Made by a program: the position numbers and the translations under genes. This document shows positions 39,440 to 45,841 of a DNA stretch of 64,000 bases, piece after piece. The notes below the pieces were generated by a model. It searched no databases, had not been told where the DNA came from, and saw nothing but the letters and a program-made list of their open reading frames with translations. Origin of the DNA: Chloroflexota bacterium (GTDB taxonomy: Bacteria; Chloroflexota; Dehalococcoidia; Dehalococcoidales; UBA5760); assembly GCA_015222205.1 (NCBI GenBank), contig JADFUW010000002.1, positions 1,303 to 65,302 on the forward strand. The letters run 5' to 3'. Position 1 is the stretch's first letter. Each line of letters opens with the position of its first letter.

Positions 39440-39916
39440 ATGAAGGTTATTTTCCTAGAGGATGTATCCAATATGGCTAGAGCCGGTGACATAAAAGAGG
39501 TGGCTGATGGCTACGGCAGGAATTTTCTTATCCCTAAAAAGTTGGCTCTTCTGGTGAATTCTCAGGCTATTAGCCTGGTGGAGGCACGGCGTCAAATAAG
39601 GGTCCGACAACAGGCCGAAAGCGAAGCCGAACTACTTGACCTGGCTAAGCAGCTAGACGGGAAGGAGATTACCCTGAAGGCTCGGGTAGGGGCTAAAGAC
39701 CGTCTGTACGGCTCAATTACTAGTGCCGATATTGCAGATGAGCTTAAAGGTAGTGCCGGTCTGGTGGTTGACAAGAGAAAAATAGAGTTGGCTGAGCCTA
39801 TCCGTAAACTCGGTAGCTATGAGGTAGTGGTTAAGCTGGGTAAGGATATACTGCCCCAGATAAGGGTTAGGGTGATAGAGGAGGAGGTTACAGCAACAGA
39901 GGGGGCGTCAGAATAG
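39440..39916 (+). CDS. rplI: 50S ribosomal protein L9
   Basis: 158 aa. MKVIFLEDV...G..G.IKEV.DGY.RNFLIP is the L9 signature. Upstream of dnaB as in many bacteria. Confidence 0.95.
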   Translation: MKVIFLEDVSNMARAGDIKEVADGYGRNFLIPKKLALLVNSQAISLVEARRQIRVRQQAESEAELLDLAKQLDGKEITLKARVGAKDRLYGSITSADIADELKGSAGLVVDKRKIELAEPIRKLGSYEVVVKLGKDILPQIRVRVIEEEVTATEGASE

Positions 39917-39917
39917 A

Positions 39918-41297
39918 GTGAACGGCGAGAAATTACCGCCACATGATATTGATGCTGAGGAAGCCGTAATCGGCTCGCTCCTGATAGAGGGCACAGCCAT
40001 CTACAAGATTACTACCCTTATTGAGCCATCGGATTTTTACGGTGAGAGAAACTCACAGATATATCGGGCATGCCTGGCACTTTACCAACGCAGTGAAGCC
40101 ATAAACCAGATTACCGTAGCCCAAGAGCTTGACCGACAGGATAAGCTGGAGGCATGCGGCGGTGCTGCTTATCTAAGCCACCTGATATCTATAGTGCCTA
40201 CGTCACTCGATATTGAGCACTATGCCCAAATTGTTTACCGTCTATCAGTAATGCGTCGTCTTATTAATGCGGGTAATCAGATTGAGGCTATTGGTTATGA
40301 AGCTGACCCGAGTGTTGAAACTAGCCTGGGTCGGGCGGAGAATATTCTATTTAGGCTGCGTCAGGGGGAAAGTGCTCAGGACCTAGTTCCTATCCGCCAA
40401 GTGCTGGATAAGTATTTTGAAGCCGTTACTCCTACCCTGGCTACTGAAGAAGGCCGTGCTGAGTCAATCCCTTATGTGCTATCCGGTTTTGCTGGCCTAG
40501 ATGAATTTCTTGGTGGATTTCAACACTCCGACCTGACTATTGTTGCTGGTAGGCCCAGCATGGGCAAGACCAGCTTAGCCCTTAACATCGCCCGAAATGC
40601 GGCGGTGGAGCAAGGAGCTTGCGTGGCTCTGTTCAGCATGGAGATGGCGCGAGAGTCACTGGTGTTGCGCCTCTTGTCCAGTGAATCCGGGGTTAATTTG
40701 AGGCAGGTTCGTCTTGGGCTGCATACGGAAGCAGAGGAAAAAAGGATTATGGACGCTACCGGTGTCCTTTCAGAGGCGCCGATTTATATTGACGATACCC
40801 CTCAGCTACGGGTAGTAGAGATGCGAAGCAAGGTCCGGCGACTGCAATATGAGCGTGGTGTCAACCTCATTATTGCTGATTACCTGCAGTTGATGCAGGG
40901 GGATAGTAGAGCCGAAAACAGGGTTCAGGAGGTTAGCTATATCTCTCGTTCCCTTAAAGGAATAGCGCGTGAGCTTAATGTGCCCGTGATAGCTGTATCT
41001 CAGCTCAGCCGCGCGGTGGAGTGGCGGGCTTCACATAAGCCTCAGCTCTCTGACCTGCGTGAAAGTGGCAGTATTGAACAGGATGCCGATGTTGTTCTGT
41101 TTATCTACCGGGATGAAGTACGCTATGCTAACCAAAAAGCCTGGGAGGATGAGCATCTCGGTGAGGCCTATCCACCTCCAGCTGAGATTATAATTGGCAA
41201 GCATCGTAATGGCCCTACCGGAGAAATAAATCTGCGTTTTATCCCAAGACTGGCTAAGTTTGAAAATATTGCTAATGCCGAGCCGAGCCTGCTATGA
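39918..41297 (+). CDS. dnaB: replicative DNA helicase DnaB
   Basis: 459 aa. PPHDIDAEEAVIGSLL, Walker A GRPSMGKTS, IADYLQLM and SQLSRAVE are present. Length is normal, so no intein. Confidence 0.96.
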   Translation: MNGEKLPPHDIDAEEAVIGSLLIEGTAIYKITTLIEPSDFYGERNSQIYRACLALYQRSEAINQITVAQELDRQDKLEACGGAAYLSHLISIVPTSLDIEHYAQIVYRLSVMRRLINAGNQIEAIGYEADPSVETSLGRAENILFRLRQGESAQDLVPIRQVLDKYFEAVTPTLATEEGRAESIPYVLSGFAGLDEFLGGFQHSDLTIVAGRPSMGKTSLALNIARNAAVEQGACVALFSMEMARESLVLRLLSSESGVNLRQVRLGLHTEAEEKRIMDATGVLSEAPIYIDDTPQLRVVEMRSKVRRLQYERGVNLIIADYLQLMQGDSRAENRVQEVSYISRSLKGIARELNVPVIAVSQLSRAVEWRASHKPQLSDLRESGSIEQDADVVLFIYRDEVRYANQKAWEDEHLGEAYPPPAEIIIGKHRNGPTGEINLRFIPRLAKFENIANAEPSLL

Positions 41298-42013
41298 AGC
41301 AGTTTAGCGGTTTCCCGGCTAAGATGCAGTTTATCCCCCTGCCCAATCTTTTCTTTAGTGCACTCTTGCCGCAAATCAACGATATGGCTGAGCTAAAGAC
41401 AACTCTATATATCTTAGCCACTCTTTACCGCAAGCGGGGCTACCCTCGCTTTGTCAGTTATAGAGAGCTATTAAGCAGCACCAGCCTGATATGTAGCCTT
41501 AAAGAAATAGCTGAGCCACCCGAAAAGTTATTGCGTAAAGCCCTGGAGATGGCGGCCAAGCGGGGCACTGTCCTTCATATAGTAGTGGATAGGGATGGGG
41601 TGTCTGAGGATATTTATTTTTTGAATACTGAGGAAAGTAGACAGGCGGTAGCTAAGATTGAGGGTGGTGAGCTTATCCTCCCTGGACTGGAAACTGCGGG
41701 GCGAACTTATCTTGGTGCCGGGGTTGGTGAGCAGTCTAACATCTTCACCCTCTACGAGCAGAATATTGGTATGCTAACCCCGATGATTGCTGAGGAGCTA
41801 CGGGAGGCGGAGAAGCTTTATCCTGCAGCCTGGATTAAGGATGCTATCAAGGAGGCAGTTAACCAGAGTAAACGCAAATGGAGCTATATTTCGGCAATAT
41901 TAGAGCGCTGGTCATCAGAGGGTAGGAGCGATGGAACCTATAGGCGAGATTCTGAAAAGACAGACCCGGATAAATACATCAAGGGCAAGTATGGGCACAT
42001 GGTCCGGCGCTAG
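41294..42013 (+). CDS. DnaD-domain (DnaB_2-type) replication protein
   Basis: 239 aa. ATGA overlap with the dnaB stop. The C-terminal NIFTLYEQNIGMLTPMIAEEL...WIKDAIKEAVNQSKRKWSYISAILERW is the DnaD C-terminal domain pattern. Confidence 0.75.
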   Translation: MKQFSGFPAKMQFIPLPNLFFSALLPQINDMAELKTTLYILATLYRKRGYPRFVSYRELLSSTSLICSLKEIAEPPEKLLRKALEMAAKRGTVLHIVVDRDGVSEDIYFLNTEESRQAVAKIEGGELILPGLETAGRTYLGAGVGEQSNIFTLYEQNIGMLTPMIAEELREAEKLYPAAWIKDAIKEAVNQSKRKWSYISAILERWSSEGRSDGTYRRDSEKTDPDKYIKGKYGHMVRR

Positions 42014-43340
42014 CGAGACTGAAGAAGACCTCCCAGGTGCAAACTGCCCTATTTGTGGCGGGGCGGGGTTTGTTCACCCTCTTCTCCCCACCGGGAAGGC
42101 CGATTTTAGTCGGGTTATCCCCTGCCGTTGTAGCCGGGAAGCCTTGGATAAGGAGCGCCAGACTCACTTGCTCAGTTACAGCAACCTGGGAGCACTGACC
42201 CGCTTCACTTTTGCCAATCTATTACCCCAAGGGAGAAGTGGGGACCCGATAAACCAGGAGCAGTTTACCCGTGCTCATGAAGCTGCCAAAGCCTTTGCTA
42301 GTCAGCCCGAGGGATGGCTAGTCCTGACTGGCCCCAGTAGCTGTGGTAAAACGCATCTAGCGGCGGCTATTGCTAACGAATGTATTAGCCGAGGTCAGCT
42401 AGCCTTTTTTATCTCTGCGCCTGACCTCCTAGACCGTCTGCGCTCTGCCTTCAGCCCCAATAGTGAAATGCCCTATGACGAATTCTTTGACCGGGTGCGT
42501 AATGCTCCGCTATTGGTTTTAGATGATTTAGGGGCTCAAACCAGTACCACTTGGGCCAAGGAAAAATTGGACCAACTGCTAAATTATCGCTTTAATAGCC
42601 AGTTACCCACGGTGATTGTTACTATTGCTCTTGTTGAACAGCTTGAGGAGCGAATACGCACTCGCCTGACCGACCCTGATTTGTGTCATATATGTGTCGT
42701 TGAGGCAGAGCCAGTCCTGTCAGAATATAGCTGGGGTCCAGAGTTCGAGCTACAAAAAACTATGACCTTTAAAAGCTTTGACCGTCGGCGGCTTAATCTG
42801 CCACCAGAGCAGCGCGAGAACCTGGAGTCAGCATTTGATTTGGCTTTTAACTTTGCCAAATCACCTGAGGGTTGGGTAGTATTTATGGGCGTTACCGGCT
42901 GTGGTAAAACGCATCTAGCGGCGGCTATTGTTAACTATTGTTATCAAGCCCAAAAGCCTGCCCTGTTCGTGGTGGTCCCTGAGTTCCTTGACCATTTGCG
43001 TTCCACTTTCAGCCCGGAGAGCAAGGTTTCCTATGACCAGCTGTTTGAAAGAATAAAGACGGCGCCGTTACTCGTTCTGGATGACTTTGGTGAGCAGTCA
43101 ACCACACCCTGGGCACAAGAAAAGCTCTATCAGGTTATTAACTACCGCTATAACGCGCGATTGGCGACAGTAATTACTGCCCGCGGTTCACTAGATGAGA
43201 TCGATAGCCCTATCAGTTCCCGGCTAGCAGACCCTAAAATAAGCACCCCATTTAATATCATCGCTCCTGATTATCGGGGTGATTTACAGTCCAGCCGGAG
43301 GAAAGTATCCCATGGTGGTAGGAAAAGGCGCTGGGATTAG
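41991..43340 (+). CDS. tandem-duplicated DnaC/IstB-like AAA+ helicase-loader protein with N-terminal zinc ribbon
   Basis: Two consecutive DnaC-like modules, each with Walker A (GPSSCGKTHLAAAI / GVTGCGKTHLAAAI) and Walker B (LLVLDDLG / LLVLDDFG). They are preceded by CPICGG...CRC. The start is ATG 41991 or 41931. Confidence 0.8.
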   Translation: MGTWSGASETEEDLPGANCPICGGAGFVHPLLPTGKADFSRVIPCRCSREALDKERQTHLLSYSNLGALTRFTFANLLPQGRSGDPINQEQFTRAHEAAKAFASQPEGWLVLTGPSSCGKTHLAAAIANECISRGQLAFFISAPDLLDRLRSAFSPNSEMPYDEFFDRVRNAPLLVLDDLGAQTSTTWAKEKLDQLLNYRFNSQLPTVIVTIALVEQLEERIRTRLTDPDLCHICVVEAEPVLSEYSWGPEFELQKTMTFKSFDRRRLNLPPEQRENLESAFDLAFNFAKSPEGWVVFMGVTGCGKTHLAAAIVNYCYQAQKPALFVVVPEFLDHLRSTFSPESKVSYDQLFERIKTAPLLVLDDFGEQSTTPWAQEKLYQVINYRYNARLATVITARGSLDEIDSPISSRLADPKISTPFNIIAPDYRGDLQSSRRKVSHGGRKRRWD

Positions 43341-43461
43341 GAAGCCATAAGCCAGGCTTGTATACCCAGAGAGTTTTTAGTAAAATGGGTAAACCTACCT
43401 GTGGGAAGAAGCTTTTCGAACAAGATACTTAAGCCTGTTTGTGGAAAGAGAGCTTATAAAC

Positions 43462-43965
43462 ATGGTAAATCAGTCAGTCCTAGTATTAAATCAGAGCTAT
43501 GAGCCACTCAATATATGTCTAGCCCGGCGAGCAGTAGTGCTGGTTTATCAAGGCAAGGCTGAGATGTTAGAAAACGGTGCTGGCTTTATCCAGTCAATCA
43601 GTTGTAGCTTTCCCCTTCCCTCAGTAATACGGCTACACCGTATGGTTAAACGCCCCCGACCTAGGAGAAGGCTGACTCGCCTGGAGGTTTTCAGCCGTGA
43701 CCAATACACCTGCCAGTATTGTGGCCGGGAAAGTCGACAGCTTACATTGGACCATGTTATCCCTCGCTACCGAGGTGGTGAGCAGACCTGGGAAAATGTG
43801 GTTAGTGCTTGTATCTCCTGTAATCGGCGCAAAGCCGGCAGGACGCCTGAAGAGGCCGGGATGAAATTAAGACACCGTCCGTCCCCTCCGCGAGATAACC
43901 TTCTTTTTTATATCCCTCTCCCCCTCAAAACTCAGGTTCAGTGGCAAAAGTATCTCCCTCATTGA
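43462..43965 (+). CDS. HNH endonuclease
   Basis: VLVLNQSYEPL...RRAVVLVYQGKAE at the N-terminus and CQYCG...LTLDHVIPRYRGG..TWENVVSACISCNRRK (HNH with zinc-finger cysteines). The start is ATG 43462 (the track uses GTG 43441). Confidence 0.88.
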   Translation: MVNQSVLVLNQSYEPLNICLARRAVVLVYQGKAEMLENGAGFIQSISCSFPLPSVIRLHRMVKRPRPRRRLTRLEVFSRDQYTCQYCGRESRQLTLDHVIPRYRGGEQTWENVVSACISCNRRKAGRTPEEAGMKLRHRPSPPRDNLLFYIPLPLKTQVQWQKYLPH

Positions 43966-43984: not shown

Positions 43985-44821
43985 TTAAACTTCAGCCTGT
44001 TTCGTCTGCTTAGGGGGATGCTTAGCCTCAGCAGTTACCTCACTGAGAGCAAGTTCTACAGTTGCCCCACTCTCTAGTTCAGCCAGTACCGTTTTCTTGA
44101 GTAGGTTATTCCCAACCACAGTAGCTCTGCCCATGGGGGTCAATACCTGCTGGCCCTTTTTGGGTAATTCATCTCGCATAGCATGATAGAGCTCACACTC
44201 ATAACCTAAACAGCACATTAAACGCCCACAAACACCCGATATTTTCATAGGATTAAGAGGCAGGTTCTGTTCCTTGGCCATTCTAATAGAAACCGGGGCA
44301 AACTCAGTTAAAAAACTCCCGCAACATAGCGGACGTCCACATCGGCCGAAGCCACCTACCAGCTTAGTCTCATCTCTAGGCCCTACCTGTCGTAATTCCA
44401 CCCGTACTTTAAGGTAATTAGTTAACTCCCGCACTAGCTCACGGAAATCAATCCTCTCGGCAGCACTGAAGAAGAAAGTAAGACGGCTCCCATCAAGGTT
44501 GTATTCAGCTGATAGTAGCTTCATCGGTAAGTGTAGCCGCTCAACCTGCTTGCTGCATTCAGCTAGGGCCTCTATGCTTTTTTGCTCCAGCTCCTGTTCC
44601 TGTTTGATATCATCGGGTTCTGCCTTGCGTATTATTGGCTTGAGTTGTTCACCCAACTCACTATCTACTACCTGCTTGGGGGCAATGACCACGTATCCCA
44701 GCTCCGGGCCGCGGGTCGTCCTGACTACTACCCGGTCATTTACCTCCAGTTCAATACCGGTCGGGTCGAAGTAGTACACCTTCCCGGTTCTCTTGAAGCG
44801 TATGCCAACTATATCAGCCAT
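43985..44821 (-). CDS. PSP1 domain protein (YaaT/RicT-like)
   Basis: 278 aa. RFKRTGKVYYFD and the C-terminal Cys-rich GRCGRPLCCGSFL...CGRLMCCL are typical of PSP1/YaaT. Downstream of holB as in Firmicutes. Confidence 0.88.
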   Translation of the reverse strand: MADIVGIRFKRTGKVYYFDPTGIELEVNDRVVVRTTRGPELGYVVIAPKQVVDSELGEQLKPIIRKAEPDDIKQEQELEQKSIEALAECSKQVERLHLPMKLLSAEYNLDGSRLTFFFSAAERIDFRELVRELTNYLKVRVELRQVGPRDETKLVGGFGRCGRPLCCGSFLTEFAPVSIRMAKEQNLPLNPMKISGVCGRLMCCLGYECELYHAMRDELPKKGQQVLTPMGRATVVGNNLLKKTVLAELESGATVELALSEVTAEAKHPPKQTKQAEV

Positions 44822-44824
44822 CCT

Positions 44825-45841
44825 TTACTCTCCTCTTCCAGGTATACTAAGCATTAATACCTCAAATACTAGCTGTGGATTGGCGTTCTGCCTGAGCTGT
44901 TCCCCAGCCGCTTGAATACTACTAATAAAGCCCTTTATTTGCGATAGACTGTAATTCCTGGCTTGCTCGACAAGTATAGCTGAAATATCGGTGTTAGCAA
45001 TAGCATCAATACAGCCTATCTTAACTAACAGGAGGTCGCGCCACCAGTCAAGCCAAAAATCCAGAGTCTCCTGGACTAACCCCCTGTTTTGGCTGAATTG
45101 GGTTGCCAACTGGGTGGCATAGCCAATACATTCCTCGCAATCAGTATTGATAATGTGAAGTAGTCTCTCTGTCTTTTCCGTTCGTTGCTGAAGCCAGCCA
45201 TCATCTTGGAAGGCTGATAGCGCCCAACCCAGGCGGCCGTGGGAAAGTCTAGCTAAAAGCTTGGCTTTTTGGGACTCAACGGCCCAGCGATTATTAAGGG
45301 CAGTCTCTACCTCTCTGGCTGTTAGTGGGGGTAACTCTAGACGCTGGCAGCGAGAAATAATAGTAGCTGGCAGCGACCTCTCACTAGTGGTTAGCAGGAG
45401 AAAGATTACCTTCCCTGTCGGCTCTTCCAGGGTTTTAAGCAAGCAGTTGGCCGCTTCGTTTGACATTAGCTCTGCCCCGTCAATAATAAATATCTTGTAC
45501 TTGCCTTCAAATGGTGGCAAGCTGGCTGAGTGTTGCATTTGTCTGACCTGGTCAATGCTGATTTCTATCTGAGGCTTGGTCTCAACTGAATCTCCGTTTC
45601 TAATCACACCTATAATCTGGACATCAGCGTGCTTACCTGAAGCTATTCTCTGGCAGGAGACACATTCTCCACAGGGAGGCTCAGCTGCCTCACAGTTTAG
45701 CGCCTTGGCTAAATCCAGAGCCAGGGTCATTTTGCCCACCTGGGGTGGGCCAACCAGAAGATAAGCGTGAGCCACCGCCTCCCTCTCCAGGCTACGCTGG
45801 AGTAAAGAGATAGCCCTGGTCTGACCAACTACCTGCCACAC
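44825..45841 (-). CDS. holB: DNA polymerase III subunit delta'
   Basis: 338 aa. HAYLLVGPPQVGK, the zinc module C..C..C and SRCQRLEL are clamp-loader delta' motifs. Confidence 0.9.
   Translation of the reverse strand: MWQVVGQTRAISLLQRSLEREAVAHAYLLVGPPQVGKMTLALDLAKALNCEAAEPPCGECVSCQRIASGKHADVQIIGVIRNGDSVETKPQIEISIDQVRQMQHSASLPPFEGKYKIFIIDGAELMSNEAANCLLKTLEEPTGKVIFLLLTTSERSLPATIISRCQRLELPPLTAREVETALNNRWAVESQKAKLLARLSHGRLGWALSAFQDDGWLQQRTEKTERLLHIINTDCEECIGYATQLATQFSQNRGLVQETLDFWLDWWRDLLLVKIGCIDAIANTDISAILVEQARNYSLSQIKGFISSIQAAGEQLRQNANPQLVFEVLMLSIPGRGE

What the first reader, a model, noticed from the sequence alone, without database searches (positions are those of the whole stretch)
41931..43340. 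Helicase-loader gene is an internal tandem duplication of a DnaC-like AAA+ module with an N-terminal zinc ribbon, inside an rplI-dnaB-dnaD-dnaC-HNH operon
Seen:
- The protein contains two full DnaC/IstB-like ATPase modules (about residues 100-270 and 285-455).
- Each has Walker A (G..(S/G)CGKTHLAAAI), Walker B (APLLVLDD(L/F)G), sensor regions and matching flanks (F(S/T)P(N/E)S..(P/S)YD(E/Q)(F/L)FE(R)..).
- A CPICGG-x(22)-CRC zinc-ribbon-like motif precedes them.
- Genes overlap or abut: dnaB/dnaD ATGA, dnaD/dnaC overlap.

Established knowledge: DnaC/DnaI loaders are normally single-AAA+ proteins that oligomerise on DnaB. DnaI carries an N-terminal zinc domain.

Inference: a covalently duplicated loader would fix a dimeric ATPase unit and could change the stoichiometry on the DnaB hexamer. 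The HNH endonuclease as last gene of a replisome operon is also notable.
Basis: partly seen in the sequence, partly recalled or inferred. Interest (0 to 1): 0.55.

Follow-up and report, generated by a model that had tools for sequence, protein, structure and literature searches.

The report
Tandem double-ATPase helicase loader of Chloroflexota
The gene next to the replicative helicase encodes a helicase loader built from two fused copies of the DnaC/DnaI-type ATPase behind one zinc ribbon; this old, conserved design occurs across Chloroflexota, where one copy has usually lost part of its catalytic machinery, and it does not appear to have been described.

Summary
ORF 41931-43340 (469 aa) encodes a conserved N-terminal helix, a four-Cys zinc ribbon (C39, C42, C65, C67) and two DnaC/DnaI/IstB-type AAA+ modules (aa 88-262 and 273-452). 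The modules are 48% identical over 147 ungapped residues (E 3e-51) and 56% identical at the DNA level, so this is not an assembly artefact.

The architecture is old and common:
- The 80 best genome loci, from Dehalococcoidia and Anaerolineae, all carry the full-length double.
- A DnaD-like gene lies directly upstream in 79 of 80, usually within rplI-dnaB-dnaD.
- M1 and M2 are each orthologous across the family, which points to one ancient duplication.
- Orthologous loci also hold 1-, 3- and 4-module versions.
- Viral relatives are all single-module.

Single-module relatives nearly always keep the full catalytic motif set. Doubles usually keep a full cis set in only one module. In this window M1 has lost sensor I and sensor II, and M2 has lost the arginine coupler.

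Best reading: this is the chromosomal DnaB loader of Chloroflexota, working as a covalent, functionally asymmetric ATPase pair. The HNH gene downstream is lineage-specific synteny and not part of the conserved core. This is a new variant of a known kind. I found no description of it in the literature I searched.

The parts
39440..39916 (+). rplI (ribosomal protein L9), first gene of the conserved cluster
   Evidence: Pfam Ribosomal_L9_N and Ribosomal_L9_C. Found upstream of dnaB in most of the 80 related loci.
39918..41297 (+). dnaB, the replicative DNA helicase and presumed client of the loader
   Evidence: TIGR00665 DnaB scores 515 bits against a cutoff of 385. Pfam DnaB and DnaB_C also match.
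41294..42013 (+). DnaD-like gene: N-terminal region with only a weak, below-threshold winged-helix match, plus a C-terminal DnaD/DnaB_2 domain. ATGA overlap with dnaB.
   Evidence: PF07261 E 7e-10; TIGR01446 scores 44 bits against a cutoff of 25; phrog_186 DnaD-like helicase loader. Directly upstream of the loader in 79 of 80 loci.
41931..42013 (+). 83-nt out-of-frame overlap between the DnaD-like gene and the loader gene
   Evidence: An overlap of 74-95 nt, always 2 mod 3, is present in 65 of 68 species loci where the start could be placed; 63 of them are 80-95 nt.
41931..43340 (+). Tandem-AAA+ helicase loader gene (469 aa plus stop)
41931..41966 (+). Conserved N-terminal helix (MEPIGEILKRQT). 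It supports the upstream start over the 449-aa database call.
   Evidence: The pattern ME.LG.IL.R is conserved in homologues at 33-52% identity. AF2 predicts a helix at aa 4-12, at low confidence.
42045..42131 (+). Zinc ribbon, C39-x2-C42 ... C65-x-C67
   Evidence: C39, C42 and C65 are invariant in 29 diverse doubles, and C67 is also invariant in 51 closer ones. The same ribbon occurs in viral single-module relatives.
42192..42716 (+). AAA+ module M1 (aa 88-262). Present: Walker A K140, Walker B D198-D199, Arg coupler R241, Arg finger R245. Missing: sensor I (V230) and sensor II.
42330..42353 (+). Walker A of M1 (GPSSCGKT)
   Evidence: G134, G139 and K140 are invariant in alignment A1.
42510..42527 (+). 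Walker B of M1 (LLVLDD)
42717..42746 (+). Variable linker between the modules (aa 263-272)
   Evidence: pLDDT below 50 at aa 260-263. Poorly conserved and variable in length in alignment A1.
42747..43286 (+). AAA+ module M2 (aa 273-452). Present: Walker A K326, Walker B D384-D385, sensor I T416, Arg finger R431, sensor II APDYR (R449). The coupler position is P427.
42888..42911 (+). Walker A of M2 (GVTGCGKT)
43068..43085 (+). Walker B of M2 (LLVLDD)
43263..43277 (+). Sensor II-like motif APDYR of M2
   Evidence: R is present at this column in 73% of M2 modules but in only about 31% of M1 modules across the family.
43287..43337 (+). Basic, disordered C-terminal tail
   Evidence: pLDDT below 50 at aa 452-469.
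43441..43965 (+). HNH endonuclease gene: a neighbour, not a core part of the system
   Evidence: Pfam HNH and HNH_5; phrog_16726 E 1.6e-35. Downstream of the loader in about 22 of 80 loci only.

Best explanation
The gene encodes the chromosomal loader (matchmaker) for the DnaB replicative helicase of this Chloroflexota (Dehalococcoidia-type) organism. It is made from the same rplI-dnaB-dnaD-loader cluster as its client helicase and a DnaD-like co-factor.

Origin. The protein derives from the phage-type loader made of a zinc ribbon plus one DnaC-like AAA+ module. An ancient internal tandem duplication of the whole AAA+ module produced the present layout: N-terminal helix and zinc ribbon (inferred helicase-binding domain), then M1, a short variable linker, and M2.

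Retained in both modules: the P-loop lysine, the Walker B acidic pair, the two-helix insertion typical of initiator-clade AAA+ proteins, the box VII arginine, and equivalents of the ssDNA-contacting residues of E. coli DnaC. Both modules are therefore expected to bind ATP and take part in a DnaC-like ATP- and ssDNA-dependent spiral on DnaB.

Division of labour. In this protein M1 has lost its cis-acting sensor I and sensor II but keeps both trans-acting arginines (coupler R241, finger R245). M2 keeps the full cis set but has lost the trans-acting coupler (P427). This predicts one fully competent composite ATPase site (M1 arginines acting on the M2 nucleotide pocket) alternating with one degenerate, binding-only site. 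The working unit would be a covalent asymmetric dimer, and three chains would supply six AAA+ modules per DnaB hexamer.

Shown: the architecture, its conservation, the synteny, the motif asymmetry, and the contrast with single-module relatives.
Inferred: DnaB binding through the N-terminal domain, ATP hydrolysis at only one site type, which interface is intramolecular, and the 3:6 stoichiometry.
For: Architecture and family:
- Profile hits fall in two stretches.
- The internal repeat has E 3e-51.
- In the AF2 model each module folds as an AAA+ core (mean pLDDT 75.6). Single modules superpose on Aquifex DnaC 3ecc (TM 0.76), DnaI 2w58 (0.70), S. aureus DnaI 5he8/5he9 (0.71-0.72) and E. coli DnaC 6qem (0.62).
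- By sequence the best PDB hits are DnaC and DnaI.

Role as the chromosomal loader:
- All 80 best genome loci hold the full-length double. The DnaD-like gene is directly upstream in 79 of 80, and dnaB and rplI lie upstream in most.
- No transposase is adjacent.
- Brezellec et al. 2016 list one resident dna[CI] gene and no dciA per Chloroflexi genome (PMC5109545).

Age of the duplication:
- The nearest neighbour of M1 is another protein's M1 in 77 of 78 cases. For M2 the figure is 57 of 78.
- Doubles align end to end at 33-52% identity, and 605 clusters (50% identity level) score E <= 1e-30.

Origin: all 72 usable IMG/VR relatives have one module, and 60 of them have an upstream CxxC. phrog_50, 'DnaC-like helicase loader', covers the zinc ribbon plus M1.

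ssDNA residues: E. coli K143, F146, S177 and Y179 align with R171, F174, T206 and W208 in M1 (direct alignment). The M2 equivalents R357, F360, T392 and W394 follow from the ungapped M1/M2 alignment. The residue roles come from Puri et al. (bioRxiv 10.1101/2020.10.21.345918). W208 and W394 are invariant.

Asymmetry across 163 doubles:

| Motif | M1 | M2 |
|---|---|---|
| Sensor II | 30% | 72% |
| Sensor I (Thr) | 69% | 90% |
| Arg coupler | 80% | 55-57% |

- Only 19 of 163 keep a full cis set in both modules; 87 keep it only in M2 and 30 only in M1. The two are anticorrelated (odds ratio 0.20, p 1e-5, not corrected for phylogeny).
- Single-module relatives keep the full cis plus trans set in 90% (cellular) and 71% (viral) of cases, against 29% (M1) and 37% (M2) in doubles.

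Natural experiment: a close lineage with identical synteny (rplI-dnaB-dnaD-loader-HNH-PSP1-holB-lysA) has a 278-aa loader made of the zinc ribbon plus an M2-like module. M1 has been deleted, and the coupler arginine is present again.

In E. coli DnaC, loss of any one of Walker A, Walker B, sensor I, Arg finger or sensor II abolishes ATPase activity.
Against: - There is no biochemical evidence of any kind.
- The relative placement of M1 and M2 is not resolved: pTM is 0.48 and no coordinates were available. It is therefore unknown whether the competent composite site lies within one chain or between chains.
- HMMER's ungapped alignment places the invariant arginine (R245/R431) opposite E. coli R216, the coupler, and not R220, the finger. 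I call it the finger because of the R-x3-R pattern and the 18-residue spacing to sensor II, compared with 17 from R220 in E. coli.
- Loss of M1 sensor II and loss of the M2 coupler co-occur only weakly (odds ratio 2.1, p 0.04, uncorrected).
- Motif calls use simple column and regex rules. The counts are not phylogenetically independent, and 13 of the 20 cellular singles come from one cluster.
- A 4-module orthologue (P0121) in the same dnaB-dnaD context does not fit a strict model of six modules per hexamer.
- In some lineages (P0121, P0272) the last module is the degenerate one, so the direction of the asymmetry is not universal.
Confidence: 0.7

Rival explanations
1. Both modules are equivalent, fully active ATPases. 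The fusion only tethers two ordinary DnaC-like protomers, giving higher local concentration and 1:1 expression, with no division of labour.
For: Walker A and Walker B are retained in both modules in more than 90% of doubles, and the box VII arginine in 88-98%. M1 is, if anything, more conserved overall than M2: 39.6% against 34.9% mean identity between proteins.
Against: Sensor I, sensor II and the coupler are lost asymmetrically, and the full cis sets of the two modules are anticorrelated. Single-module relatives keep the full set far more often. In E. coli DnaC, loss of sensor I or sensor II abolishes ATPase activity.
Confidence: 0.15
2. The protein is not the host's replicative helicase loader. 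It would be a mobile-element protein (an IS21 IstB-type transposition helper, or a prophage replication protein) that happens to lie near dnaB.
For: The best Pfam hit is IstB_IS21. The family resembles phage DnaC-like loaders (phrog_50; viral relatives).
Against: It sits in the same position after rplI-dnaB-dnaD in 80 of 80 species across two classes. No IstA transposase or phage genes are adjacent. NCBIfam IS21_help_AAA scores 124.5 against a cutoff of 200. The flanking genes are housekeeping genes (holB, lysA, an acyl-CoA carboxylase subunit).
Confidence: 0.04
3. One module (M1 in this clade) is a pure pseudo-ATPase that no longer binds nucleotide. It would serve only as a structural spacer or as a docking platform for the DnaD-like protein.
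For: M1 lacks sensor I and sensor II. A sister lineage has deleted M1 altogether and kept the same partners.
Against: The M1 P-loop (G134, G139, K140) and D198 are invariant, and the equivalents of the ssDNA-contact residues (R171, F174, W208) are conserved over 33-78% identity. That is not expected if nucleotide and DNA binding had been abandoned.
Confidence: 0.1

Closest known systems
Bacterial DnaC/DnaI AAA+ helicase loaders (E. coli DnaC, Aquifex DnaC, Bacillus/Geobacillus/S. aureus DnaI)
   Same: Same AAA+ initiator-clade fold: TM 0.62-0.76 per module. Also shared: Walker A and B, the two-helix insertion between strands 2 and 3, box VII arginine(s), a C-terminal [YFW]R sensor II (in M2), equivalents of the ssDNA-contact residues, and an N-terminal non-ATPase domain presumed to bind the helicase. 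The gene is linked to the replicative helicase and to a DnaD-type protein, as in Firmicutes.
   Different: There are two AAA+ modules in one chain behind a single N-terminal domain, and they have complementary losses of catalytic motifs. It scores below the NCBIfam equivalog cutoffs for DnaC (117 against 357) and DnaI (124 against 228). There is no match to the DnaI N-terminal domain. The loader gene overlaps the dnaD-like gene by about 83 nt.
Phage-type DnaC-like loaders with an N-terminal zinc ribbon (PHROG phrog_50; NCBIfam PRK08116 subfamily)
   Same: Same zinc ribbon (CxxC...CxC), the same TF..F start of the module, and the same AAA+ module ending in AP.Y. Identity to viral examples is 27-44%. 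This is the only curated model whose cutoff the protein passes (PRK08116: 204 against 189).
   Different: Those proteins have one module (72 of 72 usable viral relatives) and retain the full catalytic motif set much more often.
IstB, the IS21-family transposition helper ATPase
   Same: Best Pfam domain match (IstB_IS21, two stretches). PDB IstB (IS5376) is hit at E 1e-15.
   Different: There is no adjacent IstA transposase. It scores below the IS21_help_AAA cutoff. Its position in a housekeeping replication cluster is conserved.
Type II (tandem) AAA+ proteins of the classic clade (p97/Cdc48, NSF, ClpA/ClpB)
   Same: Two AAA+ modules in one polypeptide, often with one catalytically weak module. 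Foldseek lists p97 and Cdc48 first because both modules can be aligned.
   Different: They belong to a different AAA+ clade. TM is only 0.20-0.25 with rmsd about 20 A, so the stacked D1/D2 arrangement is not reproduced. Each module here is DnaC/DnaI-like, not classic-clade.

Membership tests
DnaC/DnaI-type AAA+ helicase loader | AAA+ core with Walker A lysine and Walker B acidic residues | tested here: met
   K140 with D198-D199, and K326 with D384-D385. Present in 98-100% (Walker A) and 91-93% (Walker B) of 163 doubles.
DnaC/DnaI-type AAA+ helicase loader | Fold of the DnaC/DnaI ATPase domain, including the two-helix insertion between strands 2 and 3 (initiator-specific motif) | tested here: met
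   Foldseek: 3ecc TM 0.76, 2w58 0.70, 5he8/5he9 0.71-0.72. DSSP on the model shows helices 163-172 and 182-190 between strands 159-162 and 195-198, and helices 349-358 and 368-377 in M2.
DnaC/DnaI-type AAA+ helicase loader | Box VII arginine finger acting in trans | tested here: inconclusive
   A near-invariant Arg is present (R245 in M1, R431 in M2; 88-98%). HMMER aligns it with E. coli R216, the coupler. The spacing to sensor II and the R-x3-R pattern favour equivalence to R220, the finger.
DnaC/DnaI-type AAA+ helicase loader | Sensor I and sensor II in cis | tested here: not met
   Met in M2 (T416, R449). Not met in M1 of this protein (V230, no [YFW]R). The protein therefore has one canonical module and one degenerate module.
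DnaC/DnaI-type AAA+ helicase loader | Residues contacting ssDNA (E. coli K143, F146, S177, Y179) | tested here: met
   They align with R171, F174, T206 and W208 in M1. The M2 equivalents R357, F360, T392 and W394 follow from the ungapped M1/M2 alignment. They are conserved in the family.
DnaC/DnaI-type AAA+ helicase loader | Genomic or functional association with the replicative helicase DnaB | tested here: met
   The dnaB-dnaD-loader order holds in nearly all of the 80 species loci.
DnaC/DnaI-type AAA+ helicase loader | Binds DnaB and loads it onto ssDNA | not testable with these tools
   This needs biochemistry or a multimer model.
E. coli-type DnaC (NCBIfam PRK07952 equivalog) and Bacillus-type DnaI (PRK08939 equivalog) | Score above the curated equivalog cutoff | tested here: not met
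   DnaC scores 117 against a cutoff of 357. DnaI scores 123.6 against a cutoff of 228.
Bacillus-type DnaI | DnaI N-terminal zinc-binding helicase-interaction domain (Pfam DnaI_N) | tested here: not met
   No DnaI_N hit for the whole protein or for aa 1-104, even at E <= 10. A different four-Cys ribbon is present.
PRK08116 subfamily / phrog_50 (zinc-ribbon DnaC-like loaders) | Score above the curated cutoff; zinc ribbon contiguous with the AAA+ module | tested here: met
   PRK08116 scores 204.3 against a cutoff of 189. phrog_50 has E 3.6e-84 and covers aa 26-239.
IstB (IS21 helper ATPase) | Encoded next to the IstA transposase within an IS21-family element, and scoring above the IS21_help_AAA cutoff | tested here: not met
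   It scores 124.5 against a cutoff of 200. The neighbours are dnaB, a dnaD-like gene and HNH, with no transposase.
Type II classic-clade tandem AAA+ (p97/NSF/Clp) | D1-D2 stacked arrangement and classic-clade modules | tested here: not met
   TM is 0.20-0.25 and rmsd 18-24 A over the full chain. The single modules match DnaC/DnaI instead.

The most novel reading that the evidence does not exclude
Chloroflexota load their replicative helicase with a natural 'linked-subunit' loader. This would be the first concatenated AAA+ of the initiator/loader clade. Competent and degenerate ATP sites would alternate around the DnaB-bound spiral, as three covalent dimers per hexamer. The number of concatenated modules (1 to 4) would have been changed repeatedly at the same locus by unequal recombination. 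If so, only half of the loader's ATP sites need to hydrolyse for helicase loading, and the module count per chain is an evolvable parameter of replisome assembly.
Probability: 0.35. Interest if true: 0.7.

Novelty: new variant of a known kind. Interest (0 to 1): 0.58.

Why it matters
Bacterial helicase loading is understood from two single-module loaders, E. coli DnaC and Bacillus DnaI, plus the unrelated DciA. A whole phylum appears to use a covalently duplicated loader in which evolution has silenced parts of one ATP site. That is a ready-made version of the linked-subunit and site-specific knockout experiments used to ask how many ATP sites, and in what arrangement, a ring loader needs. Orthologous 1-, 2-, 3- and 4-module versions with the same DnaB and DnaD partners provide a comparative series for testing stoichiometry models. 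The finding also corrects the annotation: these proteins are labelled only 'ATP-binding protein' or 'DnaC', and the database start for this one is probably 20 aa too short.

Tried and rejected
- Assembly artefact or collapsed repeat: rejected. The modules are only 56% identical at the DNA level, and the same architecture recurs in 80 or more species.
- The genome scan with the 29-sequence alignment A1 failed because no stretch was conserved enough. It was repeated with the 9-sequence alignment A2.
- Inter-module geometry from AF2: pTM is 0.48 and no coordinates or PAE are exposed. I could not decide whether the M1-to-M2 arginine interface is intramolecular. Full-chain Foldseek hits to p97/Cdc48 have TM about 0.2 and are uninformative.
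- N-terminal domain against Pfam at E <= 10: only noise (Anti-TRAP, HMBD) and no DnaI_N.
- Literature searches for a tandem or duplicated DnaC/DnaI loader, or for Chloroflexi or Dehalococcoides helicase loading, found no description. Only Brezellec et al. 2016 list a resident dna[CI] in Chloroflexi, and their main text does not mention the duplication.
- Test for co-loss of M1 sensor II with the M2 coupler: weak (odds ratio 2.1, p 0.04, uncorrected). I treat it as inconclusive.
- HNH as part of the replisome operon: rejected as a conserved feature. The promoter and terminator scans around it were no better than shuffled sequence.
- I ran no further search on checking cultured species such as Dehalococcoides mccartyi or Anaerolinea thermophila.
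Full report
**1. What is there**

The ORF at 41931-43340 (+) encodes 469 aa. An AGGAG lies 4 nt upstream of the ATG.

Domain evidence for two ATPase modules:
- Pfam finds IstB_IS21, AAA and Bac_DnaA, each in two stretches (IstB_IS21 E 8.6e-27).
- NCBIfam finds PRK08116 (204 bits, cutoff 189). DnaI, DnaC and IstB models match in two stretches but below their cutoffs.
- BLASTP of the two halves aligns aa 106-252 with aa 292-438 without gaps: 48% identity, E 3e-51.
- The DNA of the two modules is only 56% identical. A collapsed or expanded assembly repeat is therefore excluded.

- Walker A: GPSSCGKT at aa 134 and GVTGCGKT at aa 320.
- Walker B: LLVLDD at aa 194 and aa 380.
- Zinc ribbon: CPIC at aa 39-42 and CRC at aa 65-67.
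- One small correction: the spacing is C42-x22-C65.

The duplicated unit runs from the 'TF..F' motif that opens DnaC-type modules to the end of the AAA+ core, that is aa 88-262 and aa 273-452. It is preceded by a single N-terminal helix and a four-Cys ribbon.

**2. Surroundings**

Upstream on the same strand:
- rplI, 39440-39916.
- dnaB, 39918-41297 (TIGR00665, 515 bits).
- A DnaD-domain gene, 41294-42013.

Junctions:
- dnaB and dnaD share ATGA.
- The dnaD-like gene and the loader overlap by 83 nt, out of frame.
- HNH (43441-43965) starts 100 nt after the loader stop.
- Behind HNH, on the other strand, lie PSP1, holB and lysA.

**3. How widespread it is**

- The window's protein is in NCBI as 'ATP-binding protein [Chloroflexi bacterium]'. 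That entry is 449 aa and starts at M21 (P0001).
- The best 120 clusters (90% identity level) are all 408-475 aa, apart from one 671-aa DnaD-loader fusion. They are at least 71% identical and come from Chloroflexota or Dehalococcoidales bins.
- An exhaustive search of cluster representatives (50% identity level) gives 605 clusters at E <= 1e-30. Most of the top 150 are 420-490 aa and align end to end at 33-52% identity. My module count finds two Walker A/B pairs in nearly all of them.
- A scan of one genome per GTDB species returned 548 matching stretches. The best 80 loci are 80 different species of Dehalococcoidia and Anaerolineae, with one bin labelled Proteobacteria. All cover the query from residue 1-39 (mostly 1-2) to about residue 437-469.
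- Synteny in those loci: the DnaD-like gene is directly upstream in 79 of 80, dnaB is upstream in about 72, and rplI in about 62. HNH is downstream in only about 22, always together with PSP1/holB/lysA. The conserved core is therefore (rplI-)dnaB-dnaD-loader, and HNH is lineage-specific neighbourhood.
- Brezellec et al. 2016 had already recorded one resident dna[CI] gene and no dciA in each Chloroflexi genome they examined. Their main text does not mention a duplication (PMC5109545).
- Other searches for a tandem or duplicated loader found nothing.

**4. History of the duplication**

- Among 78 representative doubles, the nearest neighbour of M1 is another protein's M1 in 77 cases. For M2 it is another M2 in 57 cases. 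Identity between the two modules of one protein averages 37% and never exceeds 54%. This indicates one ancient duplication before the family diversified.
- Copy number has changed since then:
  - P0121 (827 aa) has four modules and sits in a dnaB(intein)-dnaD-loader context on a 64-kb contig.
  - P0122, P0271 and P0286 have at least three modules, and P0272 has four. The extra copies are M1-like.
  - Conversely, the P0155/P0380 cluster (278 aa; 44 members; contigs up to 532 kb) has the zinc ribbon plus one M2-like module. It sits in exactly the window's synteny, rplI-dnaB-dnaD-loader-HNH-PSP1-holB-lysA, including the 83-nt overlap. The junction falls at the TF..F motif, as expected for unequal recombination between modules.
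- All 72 usable IMG/VR relatives have a single module, and 60 of them have a CxxC upstream. One example is a 274-aa ORF next to a P-loop helicase-like gene.
- phrog_50, 'DnaC-like helicase loader', covers the ribbon plus M1.
- The tandem form is therefore a cellular Chloroflexota derivative of the phage-type zinc-ribbon DnaC-like loader.

**5. Structure**

AF2 run with 51 homologues gives mean pLDDT 75.6. Both modules are confident, but pTM is 0.48, so their mutual placement is undetermined.

Foldseek superposes single modules on known loaders:

| Structure | TM |
|---|---|
| Aquifex DnaC 3ecc | 0.76 |
| Geobacillus DnaI 2w58 | 0.70 |
| S. aureus DnaI 5he8/5he9 | 0.71-0.72 |
| E. coli DnaC 6qem | 0.62 |

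Full-chain matches to p97/Cdc48 have TM about 0.2, so the arrangement is not the D1/D2 type. Each module shows the two-helix insertion between strands 2 and 3 that is typical of initiator-clade AAA+ proteins.

**6. Catalytic anatomy**

The reference residues for E. coli DnaC are taken from Puri et al. (bioRxiv 10.1101/2020.10.21.345918):
- Walker A K112, Walker B E170, sensor I N203, Arg coupler R216, Arg finger R220, sensor II R237.
- ssDNA tetrad K143, F146, S177, Y179.
- Loss of any one of the five canonical motifs abolishes ATPase activity.

From the HMMER alignments and the family alignments, the two modules in this window compare as follows:

| Element | M1 | M2 |
|---|---|---|
| Walker A Lys | K140 | K326 |
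| Walker B | D198-D199 | D384-D385 |
| ssDNA-contact equivalents | R171, F174, T206, W208 | R357, F360, T392, W394 |
| Sensor I | lost (V230) | T416 |
| Sensor II | lost (no [YFW]R) | APDYR (R449) |
| Arg at -4 (coupler) | R241 | lost (P427) |
| Box VII Arg (finger) | R245 | R431 |

One caveat applies to the arginines. HMMER's ungapped alignment pairs R245/R431 with E. coli R216. I assign them to the finger, and the Arg at -4 to the coupler, for two reasons. The family motif is D.R[IL]..R[LM].D. The spacing from R431 to sensor II is 18 residues, against 17 from R220 and 21 from R216 in E. coli.

**7. Asymmetry is a property of the family**

Over 163 doubles:

| Motif | M1 | M2 |
|---|---|---|
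| Sensor II | 30% | 72% |
| Sensor I (Thr) | 69% | 90% |
| Arg coupler | 80% | 55% |
| Arg finger | 88% | 97% |

- Loss of sensor I and loss of sensor II in M1 co-occur (Fisher 2e-8).
- Only 19 of 163 proteins keep the full cis set in both modules; 87 keep it only in M2, 30 only in M1, and 27 in neither. The two are anticorrelated (odds ratio 0.20, p 1.1e-5).
- Single-module relatives keep the complete cis plus trans set in 90% (cellular) and 71% (viral) of cases. The figures for the modules of doubles are 29% (M1) and 37% (M2).
- The single-module orthologue at the window's own kind of locus has the coupler arginine where the window's M2 has proline.
- These counts are not corrected for shared ancestry, and the motif calls are rule-based. 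The direction is nonetheless consistent: after duplication, constraint was relaxed on one module's cis elements and on the other module's trans elements.

**8. Mechanism proposed**

- The protein is the DnaB loader and acts with the DnaD-like protein encoded just upstream.
- The N-terminal helix and zinc ribbon are the likely helicase-binding domain, by analogy with the N-terminal domains of DnaC and DnaI.
- The two AAA+ modules join a DnaC-like ATP- and ssDNA-dependent spiral.
- In this lineage the site formed by the M1 arginines and the M2 pocket is complete, while the site formed by the M2 arginine and the M1 pocket is degenerate. Competent and binding-only sites would therefore alternate.
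- Three chains would provide six modules per DnaB hexamer.
- The 4-module orthologue, and lineages in which the last module is the degenerate one, show that stoichiometry and polarity are not fixed across the family.

**9. Verdict**

It is wrong to treat HNH as part of the conserved cluster, and it is incomplete in treating the two modules as equivalent.

This is a new variant of a known kind: a concatenated, sub-functionalised DnaC/DnaI-type loader that is conserved across Chloroflexota, visible in databases, and not described in the literature I could search. Interest is moderate to fairly high for replication specialists.

Noticed in passing
window 41931-42013; loci L001-L080: The DnaD-like gene and the loader gene overlap by 83 nt, out of frame. 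An overlap of 74-95 nt, always 2 mod 3, is present in 65 of 68 species loci (63 of them 80-95 nt). About 27 codons are therefore dual-coding (DnaD C-terminal tail and loader N-terminal helix), which suggests translational coupling.
   Followed up: partly
window 41931-41990: The database entry for this protein (P0001, 449 aa) starts at M21. The first 20 residues (MEPIGEILKR...) are conserved in homologues at 33-52% identity, and an AGGAG precedes the upstream ATG. The annotated start is probably 20 aa too short.
   Followed up: yes
P0088 (671 aa, JGI contig of 2.3 kb): One homologue is a DnaD-loader fusion that reads across the overlap region. It is seen only once on a short contig, so it is probably a frameshift error, but programmed frameshifting was not excluded.
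   Followed up: no
window 43441-43965: A standalone 174-aa HNH endonuclease (Pfam HNH and HNH_5; phrog_16726 E 1.6e-35). Its HNH part resembles that of IscB and Cas9d (NCBIfam, far below cutoff). It is kept between the loader and PSP1/holB/lysA in about 22 of 80 related loci and also next to the single-module loader. Its function is unknown.
   Followed up: partly
L082 3433-5259: The DnaB upstream of the four-module loader (P0121) is 608 aa and carries an intein (PF14890 Intein_splicing).
   Followed up: no
P0272 (839 aa), P0122 (792 aa): Some multi-module loaders contain nearly identical M1 copies (87% identity between copies in P0122; near-identical copies in P0272). This indicates very recent module amplification, or possibly assembly artefacts in those contigs. 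In P0272 the last module has a degenerate Walker B.
   Followed up: partly
L077 (JAJPGT010000047.1): One full-length double lies in a bin labelled 'Proteobacteria bacterium'. rplI and dnaB are upstream but no DnaD-like match was detected. This may be a mis-binned Chloroflexota contig or a transfer.
   Followed up: no
window 43985-45841 (- strand): PSP1/RicT-like and holB (DNA polymerase III delta') genes converge on the loader/HNH region, so further replication and nucleic-acid genes cluster here.
   Followed up: no
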